64,000 nucleotides of DNA from a virus: positions 4,220 to 68,219 of the IMG/VR virus record IMGVR_UViG_3300043446_000421. One strand, 5' to 3'. Every line of letters begins with the position of its first letter. Positions within the stretch are counted from its first letter, which is position 1. The notes beneath the pieces are model-generated. The model searched no databases, was not told the origin of the DNA, and saw only the letters and a program-made list of their open reading frames with translations. A program made the translations under genes and the position numbers. Positions 3,442 through 25,031 of the stretch are shown piece by piece.

Positions 3442-3709
3442 AGAACACCACAATAGTTGCGCTCGACAAAGTGGCGTGGACATCAGTATTGAACTTGATG
3501 CCCTCGCCGGGAAACAGAATATGTTCCGACCCTGCCGCAGCGGGAGCCGTAAATGAAAACCGCGTAGTGCCGCCAGAACCGCCGTCTTTTAAGACAACCG
3601 TACCACCGGAGGCGTAACTGATAGTCACCGCTTTTACACGGGTCGTATCAGCGTACGCTGTATTGGTAGAGGTTACCTGCGCCGACTTAACGTCATATTG
3701 CATGGTCAT
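3434..3709 (-). CDS. Virion structural protein (beta-rich)
   Basis: 91 aa; ...PGEGIKFNTDVHATLSSATIVVFYG; in capsid operon. Confidence 0.6.
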   Translation of the reverse strand: MTMQYDVKSAQVTSTNTAYADTTRVKAVTISYASGGTVVLKDGGSGGTTRFSFTAPAAAGSEHILFPGEGIKFNTDVHATLSSATIVVFYG

Positions 3710-3721
3710 AACGACCCCCTA

Positions 3722-4171
3722 TTAGACGTTCTGCTGACCAACCAGCGGATCGGCGACGAAGTAAGTGATATAACCGCCAACTGTGCCGGTACCAGAAGTG
3801 TCGTCACGCGAAGTCACGTAAGCCATTTCAGTCGAAGCAGTCAGGGTCAGACCAGAAGTCACAACGCCAGCCGAAGCAACAGACAGGTTGTTGGCAATAG
3901 CCGCAGGAGAAGCTGTGCCGGAGGTGTAGCCTGTTGTGCCCAGATCGATAGAGCCGGAACCTGCGTCGTTAATCACGACAGACAGAACAACAGCACCAGC
4001 GGGGAGAATAAGGTTAGGAGCGCCAGCGGTCGAAGAGACTTTGACGTTGCCAGAAGCGGAAGCATCAGCAATGTAGAACTGCGCAGCCATCAGGCCGGAG
4101 CCACAATACGCGGTGCGAGTTGTGTCGCCGCCGCCCGAACGCCAGATGCTTTGGGTGGTAGAAAGTGCCAT
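3722..4171 (-). CDS. Putative capsid decoration/minor structural protein
   Basis: Start MALSTT at 4171 after GAGGA; Ala/Gly/Ser/Thr-rich with ILPAGAVV motif; directly after the major capsid gene. Confidence 0.6.
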   Translation of the reverse strand: MALSTTQSIWRSGGGDTTRTAYCGSGLMAAQFYIADASASGNVKVSSTAGAPNLILPAGAVVLSVVINDAGSGSIDLGTTGYTSGTASPAAIANNLSVASAGVVTSGLTLTASTEMAYVTSRDDTSGTGTVGGYITYFVADPLVGQQNV

Positions 4172-20868: not shown

Positions 20869-21195
20869 CCAAAAGAAACAACTAAAGCCCCGTACGAACT
20901 AACCCGCAACATGAGAGAGGAGACCATAGCATCAAAGGTTGGGAAGGGGTTTGCTTCTATGCGGCTCGAGTTTATGGAAGACGGCACTATCCACAGGCTT
21001 ATTAACGCAGGCGCTGAACACCCTGTGCCGCCCCCTAGCCCGACACTGGAGCGGGTAATAGCAGAGAAGATTGCATTACTAAAGCTTGCGCCCATAGGGA
21101 AAGTAGTACGTAGGGTGGGGCGCAAACATTCGGAAAAGGTTTATTACATTCGCATTTATCAAGAAGACATGAGGACTCACGAACATGAAGTGTGA
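20860..21195 (+). CDS. Hypothetical protein (C-terminus resembles that of the upstream ORF)
   Basis: EKIALLKLAPIGKVVRRVGRK vs GKLAMLKMLKDGDSIPEVGIR; start uncertain. Confidence 0.55.
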   Translation: MYSPKETTKAPYELTRNMREETIASKVGKGFASMRLEFMEDGTIHRLINAGAEHPVPPPSPTLERVIAEKIALLKLAPIGKVVRRVGRKHSEKVYYIRIYQEDMRTHEHEV

Positions 21196-21475
21196 CTGTG
21201 GTGGCAAGACAGAGGTGATGCAGACCATGCCCGTGCAGGACACAATCAAGCGCAGACGCAAGTGCGTGGACTGTAAGAAGCTGATGTACACCTTGGAAGT
21301 ACGAGCAGTTGTGGAGGAAGCAGCGCCACCCCCGCCACCGAAACCAAAGCCCGAACCTAAACCTATGGAGAAGGCAGCGAAGACAATTCACCAGAAGCGG
21401 GTGGAAGCCAGACGCAAAAACGAAGATAGACGTAACAAAGTACCGAGCTATTTCATTGAAGACGATGAGTACTAG
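21185..21475 (+). CDS. Zn-ribbon protein (NrdR N-terminal-like)
   Basis: MKCDCGGKTEV...IKRRRKCVDC...YTLE. Confidence 0.7.
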   Translation: MKCDCGGKTEVMQTMPVQDTIKRRRKCVDCKKLMYTLEVRAVVEEAAPPPPPKPKPEPKPMEKAAKTIHQKRVEARRKNEDRRNKVPSYFIEDDEY

Positions 21476-21483
21476 GAGGAGCT

Positions 21484-21687
21484 ATGTTGAAAAACGGTAT
21501 GTTCGTAAGAGAAGAACCGCCCATCATCGGGCGGTACTACGTGACCAAGCAAGACGTTACCCCTGAAGAGCGGTTTGTGCAAAACATTCTGTTGGCGCGT
21601 AAGCAAGACTGCCAACTTACGTTGCCTCGATGGGTCAGCAACTGGTTTCAAAATAAATTTAAAGAGGAGCCGCAAATTGATCATTGA
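21484..21687 (+). CDS. Hypothetical protein
   Basis: AGGAGG RBS; TPEERFVQNILL. Confidence 0.6.
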   Translation: MLKNGMFVREEPPIIGRYYVTKQDVTPEERFVQNILLARKQDCQLTLPRWVSNWFQNKFKEEPQIDH

Positions 21688-21880
21688 CTCGATTGACCCG
21701 CGCAAGATACTAGATTGGATTAATAATGTATGGGCAAAATCATTGGCCGCAATCATTATGTTCTTTCTAGGTCTGTGGGTTGGAAGTATCAACACTGAGA
21801 GCCGCATCGTGGCCGACTGCAAGTTTGCAGGTGCGTTTCGGGTAGAGATACAAGCGTTCACTTGTCAACGGAGGATCTAA
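21677..21880 (+). CDS. Small membrane protein
   Basis: TM segment LAAIIMFFLGLWVG, then DCKFAGAFRV...FTC; start uncertain. Confidence 0.5.
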   Translation: MIIDSIDPRKILDWINNVWAKSLAAIIMFFLGLWVGSINTESRIVADCKFAGAFRVEIQAFTCQRRI

Positions 21881-22041
21881 TGAGATATGAAGTGTATGAC
21901 GAGGAGGGAAAATTGTTCCGCAAGTTCTGGGATAGACACGAAGCAGAGAAGTTTATGCAGCAAGGCTGGAAGCTGGTAACAAAGGCCAAACACAAAGAGC
22001 CTAAGCCGACAGTCGAGAAGTTCGGCGAAGCACGTTGGTAA
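21880..22041 (+). CDS. Hypothetical protein (53 aa)
   Basis: Manual ORF MRYEVYDEEGKLFRKFW...; GGAGG RBS; overlaps upstream stop. Confidence 0.55.
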   Translation: MRYEVYDEEGKLFRKFWDRHEAEKFMQQGWKLVTKAKHKEPKPTVEKFGEARW

Positions 22042-22065
22042 TTAACTTAACCTTGGAGAATCAAA

Positions 22066-22731
22066 ATGGATATGAAAGTCAAAGAAACCGCAGTTGTTAT
22101 TTCCGCACCCAAGTTCAACACCGTTGAAGTTGTACTACAGGGCACCGCCCCGCTGGTAGTTGCGCGGTTCAGCAAGAAAGCCGAGTTGATGGCGAAGATG
22201 GCCGAGGGCAGCAGCGCCAAGAGCAAAAAGGAGCGCACCGCCCGTGACTACGATAAAGAAGCAGAAGATGCGCGGTATCGCGCCCCTGAAGGTTGGGAAG
22301 GTGTCAATGCTGCGGCCTTCCGTGCGGGCATGATCAGTGCCTGTCGGCTGGTGGGGTTCAAGATGACGCTGGCAAAGTTGTCTGTGTTTATCGAAGCTGA
22401 TGGGTTTGATAAGCAGGATGGGATTCCGTTGGTGCGCGTCTACGGCAAGAGCGAAACCTTTACCGCACATACCCGCAATGCGACAGGTGTGGTTGATGTA
22501 CGTAGCCGCCCAATGTATCGCGAGTGGGCTATCAAGCTGCGCGTTCGTTTTGATGCGGATCAGTTCAATGTACAAGACGTTTATAACTTGATCGCCCGTG
22601 TGGGTGGGCAGGTGGGCTTGTGCGAGGGTCGTCCAGATTCCAAATCGTCCGCAGGTTGTGGCTTTGGTACGTTTGAGGTGGTGCCGAATGATCGTCAGAA
22701 AGAAGTCACAAAGAAATTCGGCATTAAGTAA
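22066..22731 (+). CDS. Stand-alone RAMP/Cas7-like RNA-binding protein (Vipr-like effector)
   Basis: N-terminal strand VEVVLQGTAPLVV, 'GVNAAAFRAGMISA' helix, RSRPMYREWAIKLRVRF, and C-terminal Gly-rich loop GGQVGLCEGRP...GCGFGTFEV, the RAMP/Cas7 signature; immediately followed by the array. Confidence 0.7.
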   Translation: MDMKVKETAVVISAPKFNTVEVVLQGTAPLVVARFSKKAELMAKMAEGSSAKSKKERTARDYDKEAEDARYRAPEGWEGVNAAAFRAGMISACRLVGFKMTLAKLSVFIEADGFDKQDGIPLVRVYGKSETFTAHTRNATGVVDVRSRPMYREWAIKLRVRFDADQFNVQDVYNLIARVGGQVGLCEGRPDSKSSAGCGFGTFEVVPNDRQKEVTKKFGIK

Positions 22732-22733
22732 CT

Positions 22734-23232
22734 AGGCAGGTGGGGCTTGGCTGCGCCCGGTATGGTAGTGCTGGGTGCGGCGCGGTAATGCAAGGCAGGT
22801 ATGGATTGGCAACGTACGGATAGGTATGGCGCGGTTCGGTTCGGTAAGGTTCAGTAAGGCAGGTACGGTGTGGGCAGGTGAGTTGTGGTCTGGTCCGTTC
22901 CGGCAGGGTAAGGCAGGTGTGGCTCGGTTCGTCGCGGCACCGTCAGGATCGTTCGGGTAAGGTAAGGTAAGGCAGGTATGGCGCGGCTAGTTCGCGCAAG
23001 GTACGGTTGGTTCCGGTGTAGTAAGGCAGGTCAGGCGAGGTTTGTCGGAGTATGGTGCGGCGCGATGCGGTTTGGCTCACTACGGTAAGGCAGGTGGCGT
23101 TAGGCGGCGCAAGGTGGCGTTAGGTGTGGCGCAGTAAGGCAGGTGAGGTGTCGCACGGTGTGGTGCGTCCGGGTGGGGTGAGGCAGGTACGTTGAGGCGA
23201 GGTGGGGTTTGGTGAGGTCAGTTAAGGCAGGT
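22734..23232 (+). ncRNA. Guide-like array: 10 AGGCAGGT boundaries enclosing 9 units of phased GGY-NN pentamers
   Basis: Boundaries end at 22741, 22800, 22864, 22918, 22977, 23031, 23095, 23144, 23188, 23232 (periods 59,64,54,59,54,64,49,44,44 = 5n+4). 61 of 91 triplets are exact GGY; all but one of the rest differ by one base. The repeat structure is directly observed; RNA function is inferred. Confidence 0.8.
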
Positions 23233-23252
23233 AAATAACTTAGGAGAATGAA

Positions 23253-23732
23253 ATGACAACAGAAACAATGAAAGCAGAACGGAAGTTTCTTGAGAAGCTG
23301 GCAAAGAACAAGGGCGGTATGTTGCTGGTCGATGATGTACTGGCTGTTGCAGCAGACCCAATGTGCGTATTGCACAAACACTTTCAGTGGGATAACACCA
23401 AAGCGGCTGAAGCTTATCGCAAAATGCAAGCGCGGCAGCTTATCCAGAAATGCACTGTGACTATTGAGAAAGCCCCTGACGTACAGATTCGCGCATTCGT
23501 CAGTCTGGCAAGCGATCAGTATGCAGGTGGTGGGTACCGCATGACCGCAGACGTGTTATCAGACAACGATCTCAAAGCAGAACTGCTGCATGACATGATG
23601 GTGACCCTTACCAAGTGGAAGAAGCAGATCAATTTGTTGGACAAGGAAACCGCCGCCATCATTGATACGTTAGAAGATGTTGTGCGTACCAAAGTAGGTA
23701 GTAGGCAAGCAGCCGTTCGGAGCAGGCCGTGA
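23253..23732 (+). CDS. Hypothetical protein linked to the RAMP-like gene/array
   Basis: AGGAG RBS right after the last repeat; LLVDDVLAVAADP..VLHKHFQWDNTKAAEAYRKMQARQLI...RAFVS. Confidence 0.75.
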   Translation: MTTETMKAERKFLEKLAKNKGGMLLVDDVLAVAADPMCVLHKHFQWDNTKAAEAYRKMQARQLIQKCTVTIEKAPDVQIRAFVSLASDQYAGGGYRMTADVLSDNDLKAELLHDMMVTLTKWKKQINLLDKETAAIIDTLEDVVRTKVGSRQAAVRSRP

Positions 23733-23911
23733 AACCTCCTGAGATCGTGGCCGTAGCGTTCTACATAACCATCGCCCTGTTCTCGCTGTACTACGGCATG
23801 AAGGTCATATCAGCGGAGCCGCAGTTGATGTGCGGTGTGGCAGAGATCAGCCCGGACTTTAGCGCAGCAGACAGGGCGCGGTGCAGACAGATGAGGGGGC
23901 ATAAGTTATGA
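23729..23911 (+). CDS. Small membrane protein
   Basis: N-terminal TM; CGVAEISPDF...CR. Confidence 0.55.
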   Translation: MKPPEIVAVAFYITIALFSLYYGMKVISAEPQLMCGVAEISPDFSAADRARCRQMRGHKL

Positions 23912-24174
23912 ATGATCTTGCTTTGTATGAGTTGGGTCTTGCCATGCCTGTTTGCGCGGTATGCAACAAGCCAGTCGATAGGGTTGAGTCTATGTATGAC
24001 CCCAACTATGACGGCAAAATATTCAGGGTTCACTGCCACGGCAAAGTAGAGCAGCAGATTCTTGGCGCTTACACCATGATGGACGCAAAACAAATCACGT
24101 TTGGCAAAGCATTTGATGCCCCAGCACTAGAACGCATGAACAAAGCCGCTGAAGATAACGGGGAGGAGTTATGA
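23908..24174 (+). CDS. Zn-binding hypothetical protein
   Basis: CAVC...VHCHG. Confidence 0.6.
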   Translation: MNDLALYELGLAMPVCAVCNKPVDRVESMYDPNYDGKIFRVHCHGKVEQQILGAYTMMDAKQITFGKAFDAPALERMNKAAEDNGEEL

Positions 24175-24494
24175 CGGATAGAGAACTAATGCAGCAAGCG
24201 TTGGATGCGTTGATTGATGCGGTAGATTCACAAAACTGGGAGATGCAACAAAACATAGATCAGCACGGCGAGTGGTACAGGCGTTCTGTGTATTTAAAGC
24301 AAGCTACCGCAAAGTCTCAGGAAACAATCGAAGCACTCCGCGCCCGACTTGCACAGCCTGAACGCAAATGGCAAGGGCTGACGGATGAGGAGATTCTGGA
24401 GGAGTACAGGCAGTCGTATGGGGATGATGGGAATTTGACTGACGTTTATTTTGCCCGCGCCATCGAAGCCAAGCTGAAGGAGAAGAACACATGA
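24171..24494 (+). CDS. Hypothetical phage protein (WQGLTDEEI...FARAIEAKLKEKN family)
   Basis: Recognisable modular motif of small phage proteins. Confidence 0.7.
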   Translation: MTDRELMQQALDALIDAVDSQNWEMQQNIDQHGEWYRRSVYLKQATAKSQETIEALRARLAQPERKWQGLTDEEILEEYRQSYGDDGNLTDVYFARAIEAKLKEKNT

Positions 24495-25031
24495 GTAACT
24501 TTATTTCTGGCCTTCTTTGGTATTTGTTTGCGCCAATCAGTTGTTTATGCGAGTTGTTTAAACACCCATTCAAAACGCAGTGGGAAGAGAGAAGTGTAGG
24601 TTTGTACGACCATTGTGTTGTGTGCGGGGCGTTGATAAACAAGGAGAAGAATAATGCAATATAAAAAAGAACTCATACGTGAATTGCGTGATGTAGCAAT
24701 TCTGTTCCATGCTAGTCAAGAGTTACCGCACAAGCTGTTGGAAGTTCTTGATAAACACCTGCCCCATGTAGGCGATGTGTGCTGTGAGCGTGGGTGTATT
24801 GAGTACGAGGAAAAGAATAGTGCCTGACATAAAACTCTACGACTACCAGCGAGAGCGCGTCCCCGAAGGGACAAAGACTACCTGCTATTGGACACCGCCG
24901 CAGAAGCAGTCAAGCATTGCGCACTCAACCGCACCGTGGGCAGACGCACCGTTGATCTGTGGGTTTTATGACGAGAAGCAGGAGCTTATCGGTACGCGGC
25001 TCATCCGCAGAGATGGAACATGGGAGGATTT

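What the first reader, a model, noticed from the sequence alone, without database searches (positions are those of the whole stretch)
22066..23732. Phage-encoded RAMP/Cas7-like protein + GGY-NN array + partner gene: candidate RNA-guided system distinct from CRISPR
Seen: a 221-aa gene ending in a Gly-rich loop (GGQVGLCEGRP...GCGFGTFEV), an array starting 2 nt after its stop, and a 159-aa gene whose RBS follows the last repeat. No cas1/cas2/cas3/cas6 is present. Known: this Gly-loop plus an N-terminal 'xxPL' strand is typical of RAMP/Cas7 RNA-binding backbone subunits, which polymerise along a guide with a fixed nucleotide period. Inference: the protein oligomerises on array-derived RNAs (one subunit per 5-nt GGY-NN pentamer) to recognise nucleic-acid targets, e.g. 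competing phages or host genes. The architecture matches my recollection of recently described viral VIPR systems; I cannot verify this here.
Basis: partly seen in the sequence, partly recalled or inferred. Interest (0 to 1): 0.95.

Follow-up and report, generated by a model that had tools for sequence, protein, structure and literature searches.

The report
Phage VIPR system, staggered guide array
This freshwater phage carries a VIPR system, a CRISPR-related RNA-guided DNA silencer first described in 2026 preprints, and most of its nine five-base-coded guides spell conserved motifs of integrase and replication genes of other mobile elements, so it is a well-supported but ordinary new member of a known kind.

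Summary

From 22734 to 23232 lie nine units of NN-GGY pentamers. 61 of 91 pentamers are in register, against a mean of 7.3 in shuffles. The units are joined by GGC-A-GGT junctions that shift the register by one base. This fits the 'staggered vrRNA array' named in the legend of fig. S18 of bioRxiv 10.64898/2026.04.26.720920.

The 159-aa gene (23253-23732) is the conserved neighbour of vipr homologues in a cyanophage and a mycobacteriophage. It is not similar to SUSP1 Vap1.

Read by the published rule (two bases paired, one skipped), six of nine guides match conserved, codon-aligned motifs:
- Prim-Pol primase: 96 viral contigs, all 96 in frame.
- AAA_24 ATPase: at least 120 viral contigs.
- Two families of tyrosine integrase.
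- A large serine recombinase, in contigs that also carry the AAA_24 target.
- A family-A DNA polymerase.

The phage itself has no integrase, Prim-Pol or AAA_24 gene and no self-target.

Verdict: a new member of a known kind. This scan has already noted such arrays in at least 241 other genomes.

The parts
22066..22731 (+). vipr gene: 221-aa stand-alone RAMP (Cas7/Csm3-like) protein. The G-rich loop lies at about residues 184-201. A beta-hairpin at about 129-151 holds R148, which aligns to the thumb residue R138 of SUSP1 Vipr.
22734..23232 (+). Staggered vrRNA array: 10 junctions (AA)GGC-A-GGT bounding 9 guide units of NN-GGY pentamers. Each junction shifts the 5-nt register by one base.
   Evidence: No inverted repeats. 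No Rfam family. The same junction and 5k+4 spacing occur in 159 of 190 units from 22 related loci plus the window, and in Cy-LDV1 and Donkeykong.
22742..22800 (+). Guide unit 1 (10 variable NN). Target uncertain.
   Evidence: The exact 20-base gapped pattern hits 2 viral contigs carrying the same 29-mer. Both hits lie in a Phage_P2_GpU gene but out of codon phase.
22801..22864 (+). Guide unit 2 (11 variable NN). No target found.
   Evidence: 0 exact matches in viral contigs. Not scanned in the other collections.
22865..22918 (+). Guide unit 3 (9 NN). It spells TVQDVLPPS of Prim-Pol primase/helicase genes.
   Evidence: 96 viral contigs match exactly. All 96 are in the coding sense at phase 0, and 49 of the 26-mers are distinct. 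Pfam finds Prim-Pol + PriCT_2 + DUF3987 or VapE-like.
22919..22977 (+). Guide unit 4 (9 matching NN). It is antisense to FRDWVAEET in the catalytic domain of P4-type tyrosine integrases.
   Evidence: The 8-NN scan gave 13 viral hits, which is near background. 3 of them (L192, L194, L201) are antisense at phase 0 in integrases with differing skip bases, and the 9th NN also matches.
22978..23031 (+). Guide unit 5 (9 NN). It is antisense to TGQVFRYAI in the central domain of P4-type tyrosine integrases.
   Evidence: 1 viral contig and 55 genome contigs match. 49 of the 55 are antisense at phase 0 in ORFs mostly of about 400-490 aa (range 186-1336). Pfam on L132 finds Arm-DNA-bind_3, Phage_int_M and Phage_integrase. 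53 of 56 26-mers are distinct.
23032..23095 (+). Guide unit 6 (11 NN). It spells QEFGIAAALST in a family-A DNA polymerase-like gene.
   Evidence: 0 hits in viral contigs. 1 metagenome contig matches all 22 specified bases at phase 0. That ORF aligns to the phage's own DNA polymerase (E 9e-8), and the phage's own sequence at the aligned site is different. DNA_pol_A matches the adjoining piece at E 1.9e-7, below Pfam's cut-off.
23096..23144 (+). Guide unit 7 (8 NN). It spells GYGKGYVA of AAA_24 ATPases. A similar unit (0.89 of NN identical) occurs in related locus L019.
   Evidence: 87 of the 120 are in the coding sense at phase 0. In 27 more a longer ORF lies on the opposite strand. AAA_24 scores E 1.9e-53. 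67 of the 23-mers are distinct.
23145..23188 (+). Guide unit 8 (7 NN). No target found. A near-copy occurs in related locus L008.
   Evidence: Only the held loci were searched: 3 hits at >=6 of 7 NN against 0-47 in shuffles.
23189..23232 (+). Guide unit 9 (7 NN). It spells TEEGLDQ at the N-terminus of the resolvase domain of large serine recombinases.
   Evidence: 22 hits at >=6 of 7 NN in 2.49 Mb of held loci, against 1, 4, 6, 2 and 0 in five shuffles. All 22 are at phase 0. 13 of them lie in ORFs of 216-487 aa (mostly about 480; three cut at a locus end) within contigs that were fetched through unit 7, 4-5 kb from the AAA_24 target. Pfam on two of these ORFs finds Resolvase + Recombinase + Zn_ribbon_recom.
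23253..23732 (+). Accessory (vap-like) gene, 159 aa. The N-terminal part is helical with a beta-hairpin, and residues 104-156 form one long helix. Its biochemical role is unknown.
   Evidence: ORF with an AGGAG site. PHROG 15946. It is homologous to the gene next to vipr in Cy-LDV1 (E 6e-10) and in Donkeykong (E 5e-17). An ORF of the same kind follows the array in 15 of 26 related loci by a crude finder. It shows no similarity to SUSP1 Vap1 (E 0.6). Model pLDDT is 71.

Best explanation
This is a VIPR (Viral Interference Programmable Repeat) locus of an integrase-less, probably lytic, freshwater phage.

Inferred from the published SUSP1 work, not shown here:
- The operon vipr - array - vap is transcribed.
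- Vipr protomers bind the array RNA, one per NN-GGY pentamer. They hide the GGY bases and present the NN bases.
- Each 7-11-NN guide pairs with double-stranded DNA, reading two bases and skipping one, and blocks transcription.

Shown here: under that rule the guides spell codon-aligned conserved motifs of other mobile elements. These are two families of tyrosine integrase, a large serine recombinase, a Prim-Pol primase, an AAA_24 recombination ATPase and a family-A DNA polymerase. The phage itself lacks all of these genes, or differs at the site.

My reading is that on infection the phage silences excision and replication genes of resident prophages or satellites. Because the skipped base falls on the wobble position, one guide covers many diverged alleles.

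The GGC-A-GGY junctions, which break the 5-nt register by one base, probably delimit the guides. This is inferred. The 159-aa partner is the accessory protein of this VIPR lineage, and its role is unknown.
For: Protein:
- Its only solved sequence relative is SUSP1 Vipr. The homology was confirmed on the SUSP1 genome.
- It has a Csm3/Cas7 fold.
- The family is large: 4985 proteins at E<=1e-3 and 2013 representatives at 50% identity.

Array:
- 61 of 91 pentamers are NN-GGY in register, against 7.3 in shuffles.
- Unit lengths are 5k+4, which fits the fig. S18 legend 'staggered vrRNA arrays ... 1 nt overlapping positions'.
- 22 related loci have the same grammar. Their guide content is mostly unique: 96 of 126 NN strings occur in one locus only.

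Targets:
- Unit 3 matches 96 viral contigs, while the other 18-base pattern matched 1. All 96 are at phase 0.
- Unit 7 matches at least 120 contigs.
- Unit 5 matches 55 genome contigs, 49 of them in-frame integrases.
- Unit 4 matches 3 integrases.
- Unit 9 matches a serine recombinase in 13 contigs that were fetched through unit 7.
- Unit 6 matches one polymerase gene at 11 of 11 NN.
- The skip bases vary among hits.

Self and context:
- No guide matches the phage's own genome above shuffled controls.
- The genome lacks AAA_24, Prim-Pol and Phage_integrase families and Cas1, Cas2 and Cas6.
- Phage context: terminase, portal, polymerase, helicase and primase.
Against: - Nothing here shows transcription, processing, RNA binding or silencing. 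An RNA-library run holds contigs on array units, but DNA can be present in such libraries.
- The host is unknown, so no target has been placed in a cell that this phage infects.
- Units 2 and 8 have no target. The two hits of unit 1 are out of codon phase.
- Unit 6 rests on one contig. Unit 4 rests on 3 of 13 hits.
- Of the SUSP1 residues named as GGY contacts, W178 aligns to an invariant Gly and H17 to Ala. R138, R179 and D177 align to Arg, Arg and Glu (alignments). The contacts may therefore differ.
- The partner is not similar to Vap1 and has no recognisable fold.
Confidence: 0.9

Rival explanations
1. The system regulates the phage's own genes or host chromosomal genes (a timing or takeover switch) rather than rival mobile elements.
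For: The locus sits in the early/replication arm, upstream of the DNA polymerase. The integrase motif of unit 5 is found in bacterial genome assemblies of many phyla, so the targets lie physically in host chromosomes.
Against: The best matches in the phage's own genome are 5-7 NN, no better than shuffled guides. The matched genes are integrases, primases and recombinases typical of integrated mobile elements, not housekeeping genes. The published systems also target satellites and prophages.
Confidence: 0.06
2. The G/T-rich stretch is a protein-coding or merely structural repeat, and the RAMP-like gene acts without it.
For: In Mycobacterium phage Donkeykong the equivalent array is annotated as CDS gp48. 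The window has a 61-aa ORF at 22775-22960.
Against: The period is 5, not 3, and the register shifts by one base at each junction. No ORF spans the array. The NN content is mostly unique to each locus while GGY is kept. The NN strings alone retrieve single protein families in frame.
Confidence: 0.02
3. A decaying or decoy array: the guides are relics or serve to titrate a rival's Vipr, as described for solo vrRNAs of satellites. They would not be an active weapon of this phage.
For: 30 of 91 pentamers depart from strict GGY. Three guides have no clear target. Decoy and solo vrRNAs exist in the SUSP1 system (abstract and section 8 passages of 10.64898/2026.10.15.759431).
Against: The vipr and partner genes are intact and conserved next to the array. 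Unit 3 matches 9 of 9 NN in 96 contigs although 3 of its 9 scaffolds are degenerate.
Confidence: 0.05

Closest known systems
VIPR with 'staggered vrRNA arrays' (bioRxiv 10.64898/2026.04.26.720920, Results text and legend of fig. S18; read)
   Same: A lone Vipr RAMP gene, one accessory gene and a contiguous array of GGY/NN pentamers in which the end of one guide marks the start of the next with a one-base overlap. Here that shows as 5k+4 unit lengths. The carrier is a phage and there are no cas genes.
   Different: I could not see the figure or data S4, because supplements are closed, so the type number (I-VII) and vap number are not assigned. By the Results text, staggered arrays were not among the architectures confirmed by small-RNA sequencing. 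The guide repertoire here is specific to this phage.
Escherichia phage SUSP1 VIPR (type II; NC_028808.2 genes agp039 vipr and agp038 vap1; PDB 36pp)
   Same: The Vipr protein is homologous (profile E 1.2e-7; 23% identity). Both have GGY/NN repeats and follow the one-base-skip, wobble-aligned targeting rule. Both target a rival element's recombinase (10.64898/2026.10.15.759431, abstract and section headings).
   Different: SUSP1 vrRNAs are separate units of about 100 nt, each with a structured pseudoknot tail, and they lie after vap1 and upstream of vipr. Here the guides are 44-64 nt and abut directly with no structured tail, and they lie between vipr and the partner gene. The partner is not similar to Vap1 (E 0.6). 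W178 and H17 of SUSP1 Vipr are not conserved.
Cas7/Csm3 backbone subunits of Class 1 CRISPR-Cas effectors (e.g. 9g9f_D, 8do6_E, 6ifn_E)
   Different: Sequence identity is 5-16% (range over the rows). There is no CRISPR repeat-spacer array and no Cas1, Cas2 or Cas6. The period is 5 nt with three bases hidden, not 6 nt with one base flipped. The target is dsDNA read discontinuously.
vipr-partner pairs of Cyanophage Cy-LDV1 (g34/g33) and Mycobacterium phage Donkeykong (gp49/gp50)
   Same: Vipr identity is 56% and 35%. The partner is homologous. The GGCAGGY junctions show the same 5k+4 spacing.
   Different: Cy-LDV1 has arrays on both sides of the partner gene. Donkeykong has its array upstream of vipr, annotated as a CDS. 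Both are temperate-type phages with a repressor and excisionase nearby, whereas this phage has no integrase.

Membership tests
VIPR system | Vipr protein homologous to a characterised Vipr | tested here: met
   The only PDB sequence match is 'SUSP1 Vipr protein': E 0.0043 for the single sequence and E 1.2e-7 for the profile, nearly full length. The profile finds the SUSP1 gene in its genome at E 1.6e-9. BLASTP gives E 1e-7.
VIPR system | GGY-contact residues named for SUSP1 Vipr (H17, R138, D177, W178, R179) | tested here: inconclusive
   By the alignments: R138->R148, R179->R189, D177->E187, W178->G188 (invariant Gly in this clade) and H17->A33. The alignment of the N-terminal part is weak.
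VIPR system | vrRNA region of tandem YNNGG (GGY/NN) repeats, at least four units | tested here: met
   9 units of 8-12 pentamers. 61 of 91 are strictly in register, against 7.3 in shuffles. The criterion was read.
VIPR system | Adjacent accessory (vap) gene | tested here: met
   The 159-aa gene directly follows the array. Homologues sit beside vipr in Cy-LDV1 and Donkeykong and in related loci. Which of vap1-6 it is cannot be told without the supplements. It is not Vap1-like.
VIPR system | Natural targets obey the one-base-skip rule, with the skip base on the codon wobble position, in other mobile elements | tested here: met
   Units 3, 4, 5, 6, 7 and 9. Skip bases vary among hits. Alternative skip lengths were not scanned.
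VIPR system | No self-targeting at >=80% NN match | tested here: met
   The best matches in the phage's own genome are 5-7 of 7-11 NN. None reaches 80%, and none exceeds the shuffled controls.
VIPR system | vrRNAs expressed, bound by Vipr, and repressing DNA targets | not testable with these tools
   There is only a weak hint: contigs of one RNA-library run lie on array units. The tool itself warns that DNA can be present in such libraries.
VIPR type II (SUSP1 / P. fulva clade) | Discrete vrRNAs with an invariable structured 3' tail (a pseudoknot in the SUSP1 clade) and Vap1 | tested here: not met
   No inverted repeats in the array. No Rfam match. The only constant element is the roughly 9-nt junction. 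The partner is unlike Vap1. The SUSP1 array was read for comparison.
VIPR staggered-array architecture | Adjacent vrRNAs overlap by one base, so that the end of one marks the start of the next | tested here: met
   All 9 units are 5k+4 nt. 159 of 190 units in related loci are too. The legend was read. The figure itself was not seen.
CRISPR-Cas (Class 1) | Repeat-spacer array plus cas1/cas2 adaptation genes and other cas genes | tested here: not met
   No Cas1, Cas2 or Cas6 family match in the 68-kb genome. The repeats have a 5-nt period, not 25-40-nt repeats with spacers.

The most novel reading that the evidence does not exclude
In staggered arrays the GGC-A-GGY junction may itself be the guide delimiter. 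By leaving one base instead of two between GGY triplets, it breaks the Vipr filament register. Separate filaments would then form on one transcript, or trimming would be directed there, without a dedicated nuclease or ribozyme. The same junctions may act as recombination points at which whole guide cassettes are exchanged between related phages, a simple route to new guide sets. In support, contigs from other sequencing runs share single units of this array, and their matches end within about four bases of the junctions. Near-identical units also occur in related loci.
Probability: 0.25. Interest if true: 0.6.

Novelty: new member of a known kind. Interest (0 to 1): 0.3.

Why it matters
This is one more natural VIPR locus, but a readable one. 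It lies in a complete 68-kb uncultured phage, and six of its nine guides can be assigned to target gene families. Three guides aim at three different integrase or recombinase families, and two guides hit the same rival contigs. That extends to a freshwater phage the picture drawn for SUSP1, in which a lytic phage blocks excision and replication of resident elements. It also gives concrete sequences for testing the staggered-array architecture. By the preprint's Results text that I read, staggered arrays were not among the architectures confirmed by small-RNA sequencing. It does not change what is known about the mechanism.

Tried and rejected
Searches that gave nothing:
- Megablast of 21000-25000 against GenBank phages: no match.
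- Pfam on the two proteins: nothing above cut-off.
- Close relatives of Vipr in GTDB genomes: none.
- Rfam: no family, so no hammerhead-interspersed array.
- The promoter and terminator scan was at the shuffle level.

Guide and target tests that did not support a link:
- Guides of 22 related loci do not match this phage's genome above shuffles (mean best fraction 0.638 against 0.636). I found no sign that relatives target this phage.
- No held locus other than the unit-7/unit-9 contigs carries targets of two window guides. The integrases matched by unit 5 reach at most 5 of 9 NN for unit 4.
- Unit 1's two hits are out of codon phase, so I do not count them.
- Units 2 and 6 gave 0 hits in viral contigs.
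- Unit 8 is at background level in the held loci.

Limits of the read data:
- Read laying: parts of vipr and of the partner gene without cover in the RNA-library runs prove nothing. X18 and X20 are probably DNA.
- Habitat labels of runs with small shares were not used.

Limits of the papers: the supplements (figs S16-S18, data S3 and S4) were closed. They may hold this very clade, its type number and its vap name.
Full report
**What is there.** On the + strand an ORF of 221 aa (22066-22731) ends two bases before a 499-nt G/T-rich stretch (22734-23232). An AGGAG site and an ORF of 159 aa (23253-23732) follow.

The stretch holds ten copies of AGGCAGGT. They bound nine units of 59, 64, 54, 59, 54, 64, 49, 44 and 44 nt. 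Every unit is 5k+4 nt long. Read from the junction, each is a run of NN-GG-Y pentamers that ends in (A)A-GGC then A-GGT. One base instead of two therefore lies between the last two GGY triplets, and the register slips by one.

In register, 61 of 91 pentamers are strictly NN-GG-Y. In 2000 shuffles the mean was 7.3 and the maximum 17. Positions 3, 4 and 5 are G, G and Y in 76, 79 and 87 of 91 pentamers, and positions 1-2 are mixed. No other such array exists on either strand of the genome. The array has no inverted repeats and no Rfam match.

**The genome.** The window is bases 4220-68219 of a single 68,219-bp virus record that CheckV rates 100% complete. It encodes a terminase, portal, family-A DNA polymerase, helicase, primase, tail fibre and a 2485-aa protein. 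It has no match to the Phage_integrase, Prim-Pol, AAA_24, Cas1, Cas2 or Cas6 families. Near-identical DNA is held by runs labelled freshwater, reservoir and estuary metagenomes.

**The 221-aa protein.** Pfam finds nothing, and PHROG 4652 is of unknown function.
- Against all PDB chain sequences the single protein hits one chain only, 36pp_D 'SUSP1 Vipr protein' (E 0.0043).
- A profile of 60 diverse relatives (alignment A1, taken from the 150 listed of 2013 representatives) hits the same chain at E 1.2e-7. The match runs over profile positions 24-196 and chain residues 4-180.
- The same profile finds the gene in the SUSP1 genome (E 1.6e-9). There it is agp039, next to agp038, which is vap1. Pairwise BLASTP gives 23% identity and E 1e-7.
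- By the alignments, SUSP1 R138 (thumb), R179 and D177 (G-loop) correspond to R148, R189 and E187. W178 corresponds to an invariant Gly and H17 to Ala.

**What is published.** I read the Results and three Methods sections of bioRxiv 10.64898/2026.04.26.720920. I read two Results sections of 10.64898/2026.04.26.720927. Of 10.64898/2026.10.15.759431 I saw the outline and passages. Of 10.64898/2026.10.21.760802 I saw passages.

They define VIPR as follows:
- a phage-borne Vipr RAMP, one accessory vap gene, and vrRNAs of 9-16 GGY/NN repeats;
- one protomer per repeat;
- the GGY bases are sequestered and the NN bases pair with dsDNA while every third target base is skipped;
- targets are competing phages and satellites, and the outcome is transcriptional silencing;
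- there are seven types, and the array architectures include 'staggered arrays with overlapping vrRNAs', whose legend says neighbours overlap by one base.

The 5k+4 grammar found here is that architecture.

**Relatives.** The family is large, with 4985 proteins at E<=1e-3 in one search.

Twenty-eight IMG/VR loci encode proteins 73-95% identical. In the 22 loci that my array routine parsed, plus the window, there are 190 inter-junction units. 159 of them are 5k+4 long, mostly 44-64 nt. The junction logo is AA-GGC-A-GGY, with GGY kept and NN free on both sides. The routine returned zero length for three further loci, although a cruder count found 11-17 junctions there. Some loci are duplicates.

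Guide content turns over fast. Of 126 distinct NN strings, 96 occur in one locus, 28 in two, and one each in three and four. Three window units have near-copies elsewhere.

Cyanophage Cy-LDV1 (56% identity) has arrays on both sides of the partner gene. Mycobacterium phage Donkeykong (35%) has its array upstream of vipr, annotated as CDS gp48. Both use GGCAGGC junctions with 5k+4 spacing, in 7 of 7 and 4 of 5 intervals.

**The partner gene.** The 159-aa protein matches PHROG 15946, of unknown function. It has 177 relatives in the word-indexed search. It is homologous to the gene beside vipr in Cy-LDV1 (E 6e-10) and in Donkeykong (E 5e-17). A like ORF follows the array in 15 of 26 related loci by a crude finder.

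It is not similar to SUSP1 Vap1 (E 0.6). Its model is mediocre (pLDDT 71): helices, a beta-hairpin and one long C-terminal helix. No structural search gave a usable match. I take it to be the vap of this lineage, with an unknown role.

**Targets.** I turned each unit's variable NN into the pattern NN-x-NN-x... and scanned the collections for exact matches.

Background can be read from the scans themselves. Patterns with 22 specified bases gave 0 and 0 viral hits. The 20-base pattern gave 2. One 18-base pattern gave 1. A 16-base pattern gave 13, of which 10 looked random.

Against that background:
- **Unit 3** (18 bases) gave 96 viral contigs. All 96 are in the coding sense with NN on codon positions 1-2, and they spell TVQDVLPPS. 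49 of the 26-mers are distinct. The proteins are Prim-Pol + PriCT_2 + DUF3987 or VapE-like.
87 are in frame and spell GYGKGYVA (86) or GYGNGYVA (1). In 27 more a longer ORF lies on the other strand. The proteins are AAA_24 ATPases.
- **Unit 5** gave one viral contig and 55 genome contigs. 49 of the 55 are antisense at phase 0 and spell TGQVF/LRYAI, mostly in ORFs of about 400-490 aa, and two of them read TGH. Four others have a longer ORF on the guide strand, and two are out of phase. The one such protein that I scanned against Pfam (L132) is a P4-type tyrosine integrase. The organisms span Acidobacteriota, Burkholderiales, Desulfovibrionaceae, Bifidobacterium and others, so this gives no host.
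- **Unit 4**: 3 of its 13 hits are antisense at phase 0 and spell FRDWVAEET in the catalytic domain of another branch of such integrases. The ninth NN also matches.
- **Unit 6** matched all 22 bases once in the metagenome collection. The match is in frame and spells QEFGIAAALST in a polymerase-like ORF that aligns to the phage's own polymerase. The phage's own sequence at the aligned site is different.
- **Unit 9** was too short for a clean collection scan, so I searched the 2.49 Mb of loci already held. It gave 22 hits at >=6 of 7 NN, against 1, 4, 6, 2 and 0 in shuffles. All 22 are at phase 0. Thirteen lie in ORFs of 216-487 aa, mostly about 480 aa; the two that I scanned against Pfam are large serine recombinases. 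They spell TEEGLDQ at the start of the resolvase domain. These ORFs lie in contigs that had been fetched through unit 7, 4-5 kb from the AAA_24 target. Two guides therefore converge on one rival lineage.

The constant AA of the tail and the junction bases do not match the flanking codons of the targets (peptides), so only the variable NN guide. No window guide matches the phage's own genome above shuffled controls.

**Weak points.**
- Unit 2 (viral scan only) and unit 8 (held loci only) have no target.
- Unit 1's two hits share one 29-mer and are out of codon phase in a P2 GpU gene.
- Unit 6 is a single contig.
- I had no scans left for shuffled or other-skip controls in the collections.
- The host is unknown.
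- Nothing shows expression. In one run recorded as a metatranscriptome, 11 contigs were laid, and seven of the eight listed pieces lie on array units. The tool warns that DNA can be present in such libraries.

**An extra observation.** In that call, contigs of several runs match single units with 0-2 differences and then diverge. The matches begin or end within about four bases of the junctions, for example at 22734/22735-22800, 22968-23031, 22966-23031 and 23138-23188. One contig carries window units in another order. This fits exchange of whole guide cassettes at the junctions, but it is only a hint.

**Mechanism, with marks.**
- Shown here: the homology and fold of Vipr, the array grammar, the conserved partner, the gapped codon-aligned matches to integrase, recombinase, primase, ATPase and polymerase genes of other elements, the absence of those genes from the phage, and the absence of self-targets.
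- Taken from the preprints on SUSP1: one protomer per pentamer, dsDNA binding with a skipped base, and silencing.
- Inferred: the phage silences excision and replication genes of resident prophages or satellites during infection, the junction's register break delimits the guides, and the partner assists in an unknown way.

**Verdict.** This is a real VIPR locus of the staggered-array architecture, a new member of a known kind. This scan has already noted such arrays many times: 564 notes in at least 241 genomes. Those notes led me to read the guides as codons, and I then tested that reading on this array myself.

Noticed in passing
L002 3491-3860 (Mycobacterium phage Donkeykong, NC_051648.1): The ORF annotated as gp48 'hypothetical protein' (locus 3501-3887) is a GGC/NN pentamer array with GGCAGGC junctions. 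It lies directly upstream of the vipr homologue gp49, so it is probably a mis-called CDS. The 27 mycobacteriophage records that hit may share this.
   Followed up: partly
L001 4626-4835 and 5426-5580 (Cyanophage Cy-LDV1, BK059895.1): Two pentamer arrays flank the partner-gene homologue g33. They lie between the vipr homologue g34 and an excisionase, within a few kb of the cI-like repressor. This is the same system in a temperate-type phage.
   Followed up: partly
L188 531-536: In the single metagenome contig matched by guide unit 6, an in-frame TAA follows two codons after the targeted motif, and the polymerase-like frame continues after it. This may be a pseudogene, an assembly error or a recoded stop.
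   Followed up: no
window 22874-22880: Unit 3 contains an in-register GGCAGGT that is not a junction. The 9-NN footprint matched in 96 contigs spans it, so the junction is defined by the one-base spacing and not by the letters alone.
   Followed up: yes
window 22734-23232, laid runs X3, X19, X20: Contigs from other sequencing runs share single guide units of this array. Their matches end at or within about four bases of the junctions, and one contig holds the units in another order. One contig lacks 5 bases at 22956, inside the (GGTAA)x3 run.
   Followed up: partly
L227 7474-7703: In one viral contig both unit 7 (8 of 8 NN) and unit 9 (7 of 7 NN, spelling TEDGLDQ) fall in the same 260-aa AAA_24 ORF, about 210 nt apart.
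   Followed up: no
window 23092-23126: Unit 7 contains a 10-nt tandem repeat (AGGTGGCGTT, 3.5 copies by TRF). Its NN string therefore repeats internally (GG TA GG AA GG TA), yet it matches a real protein motif, GYGKGY.
   Followed up: partly
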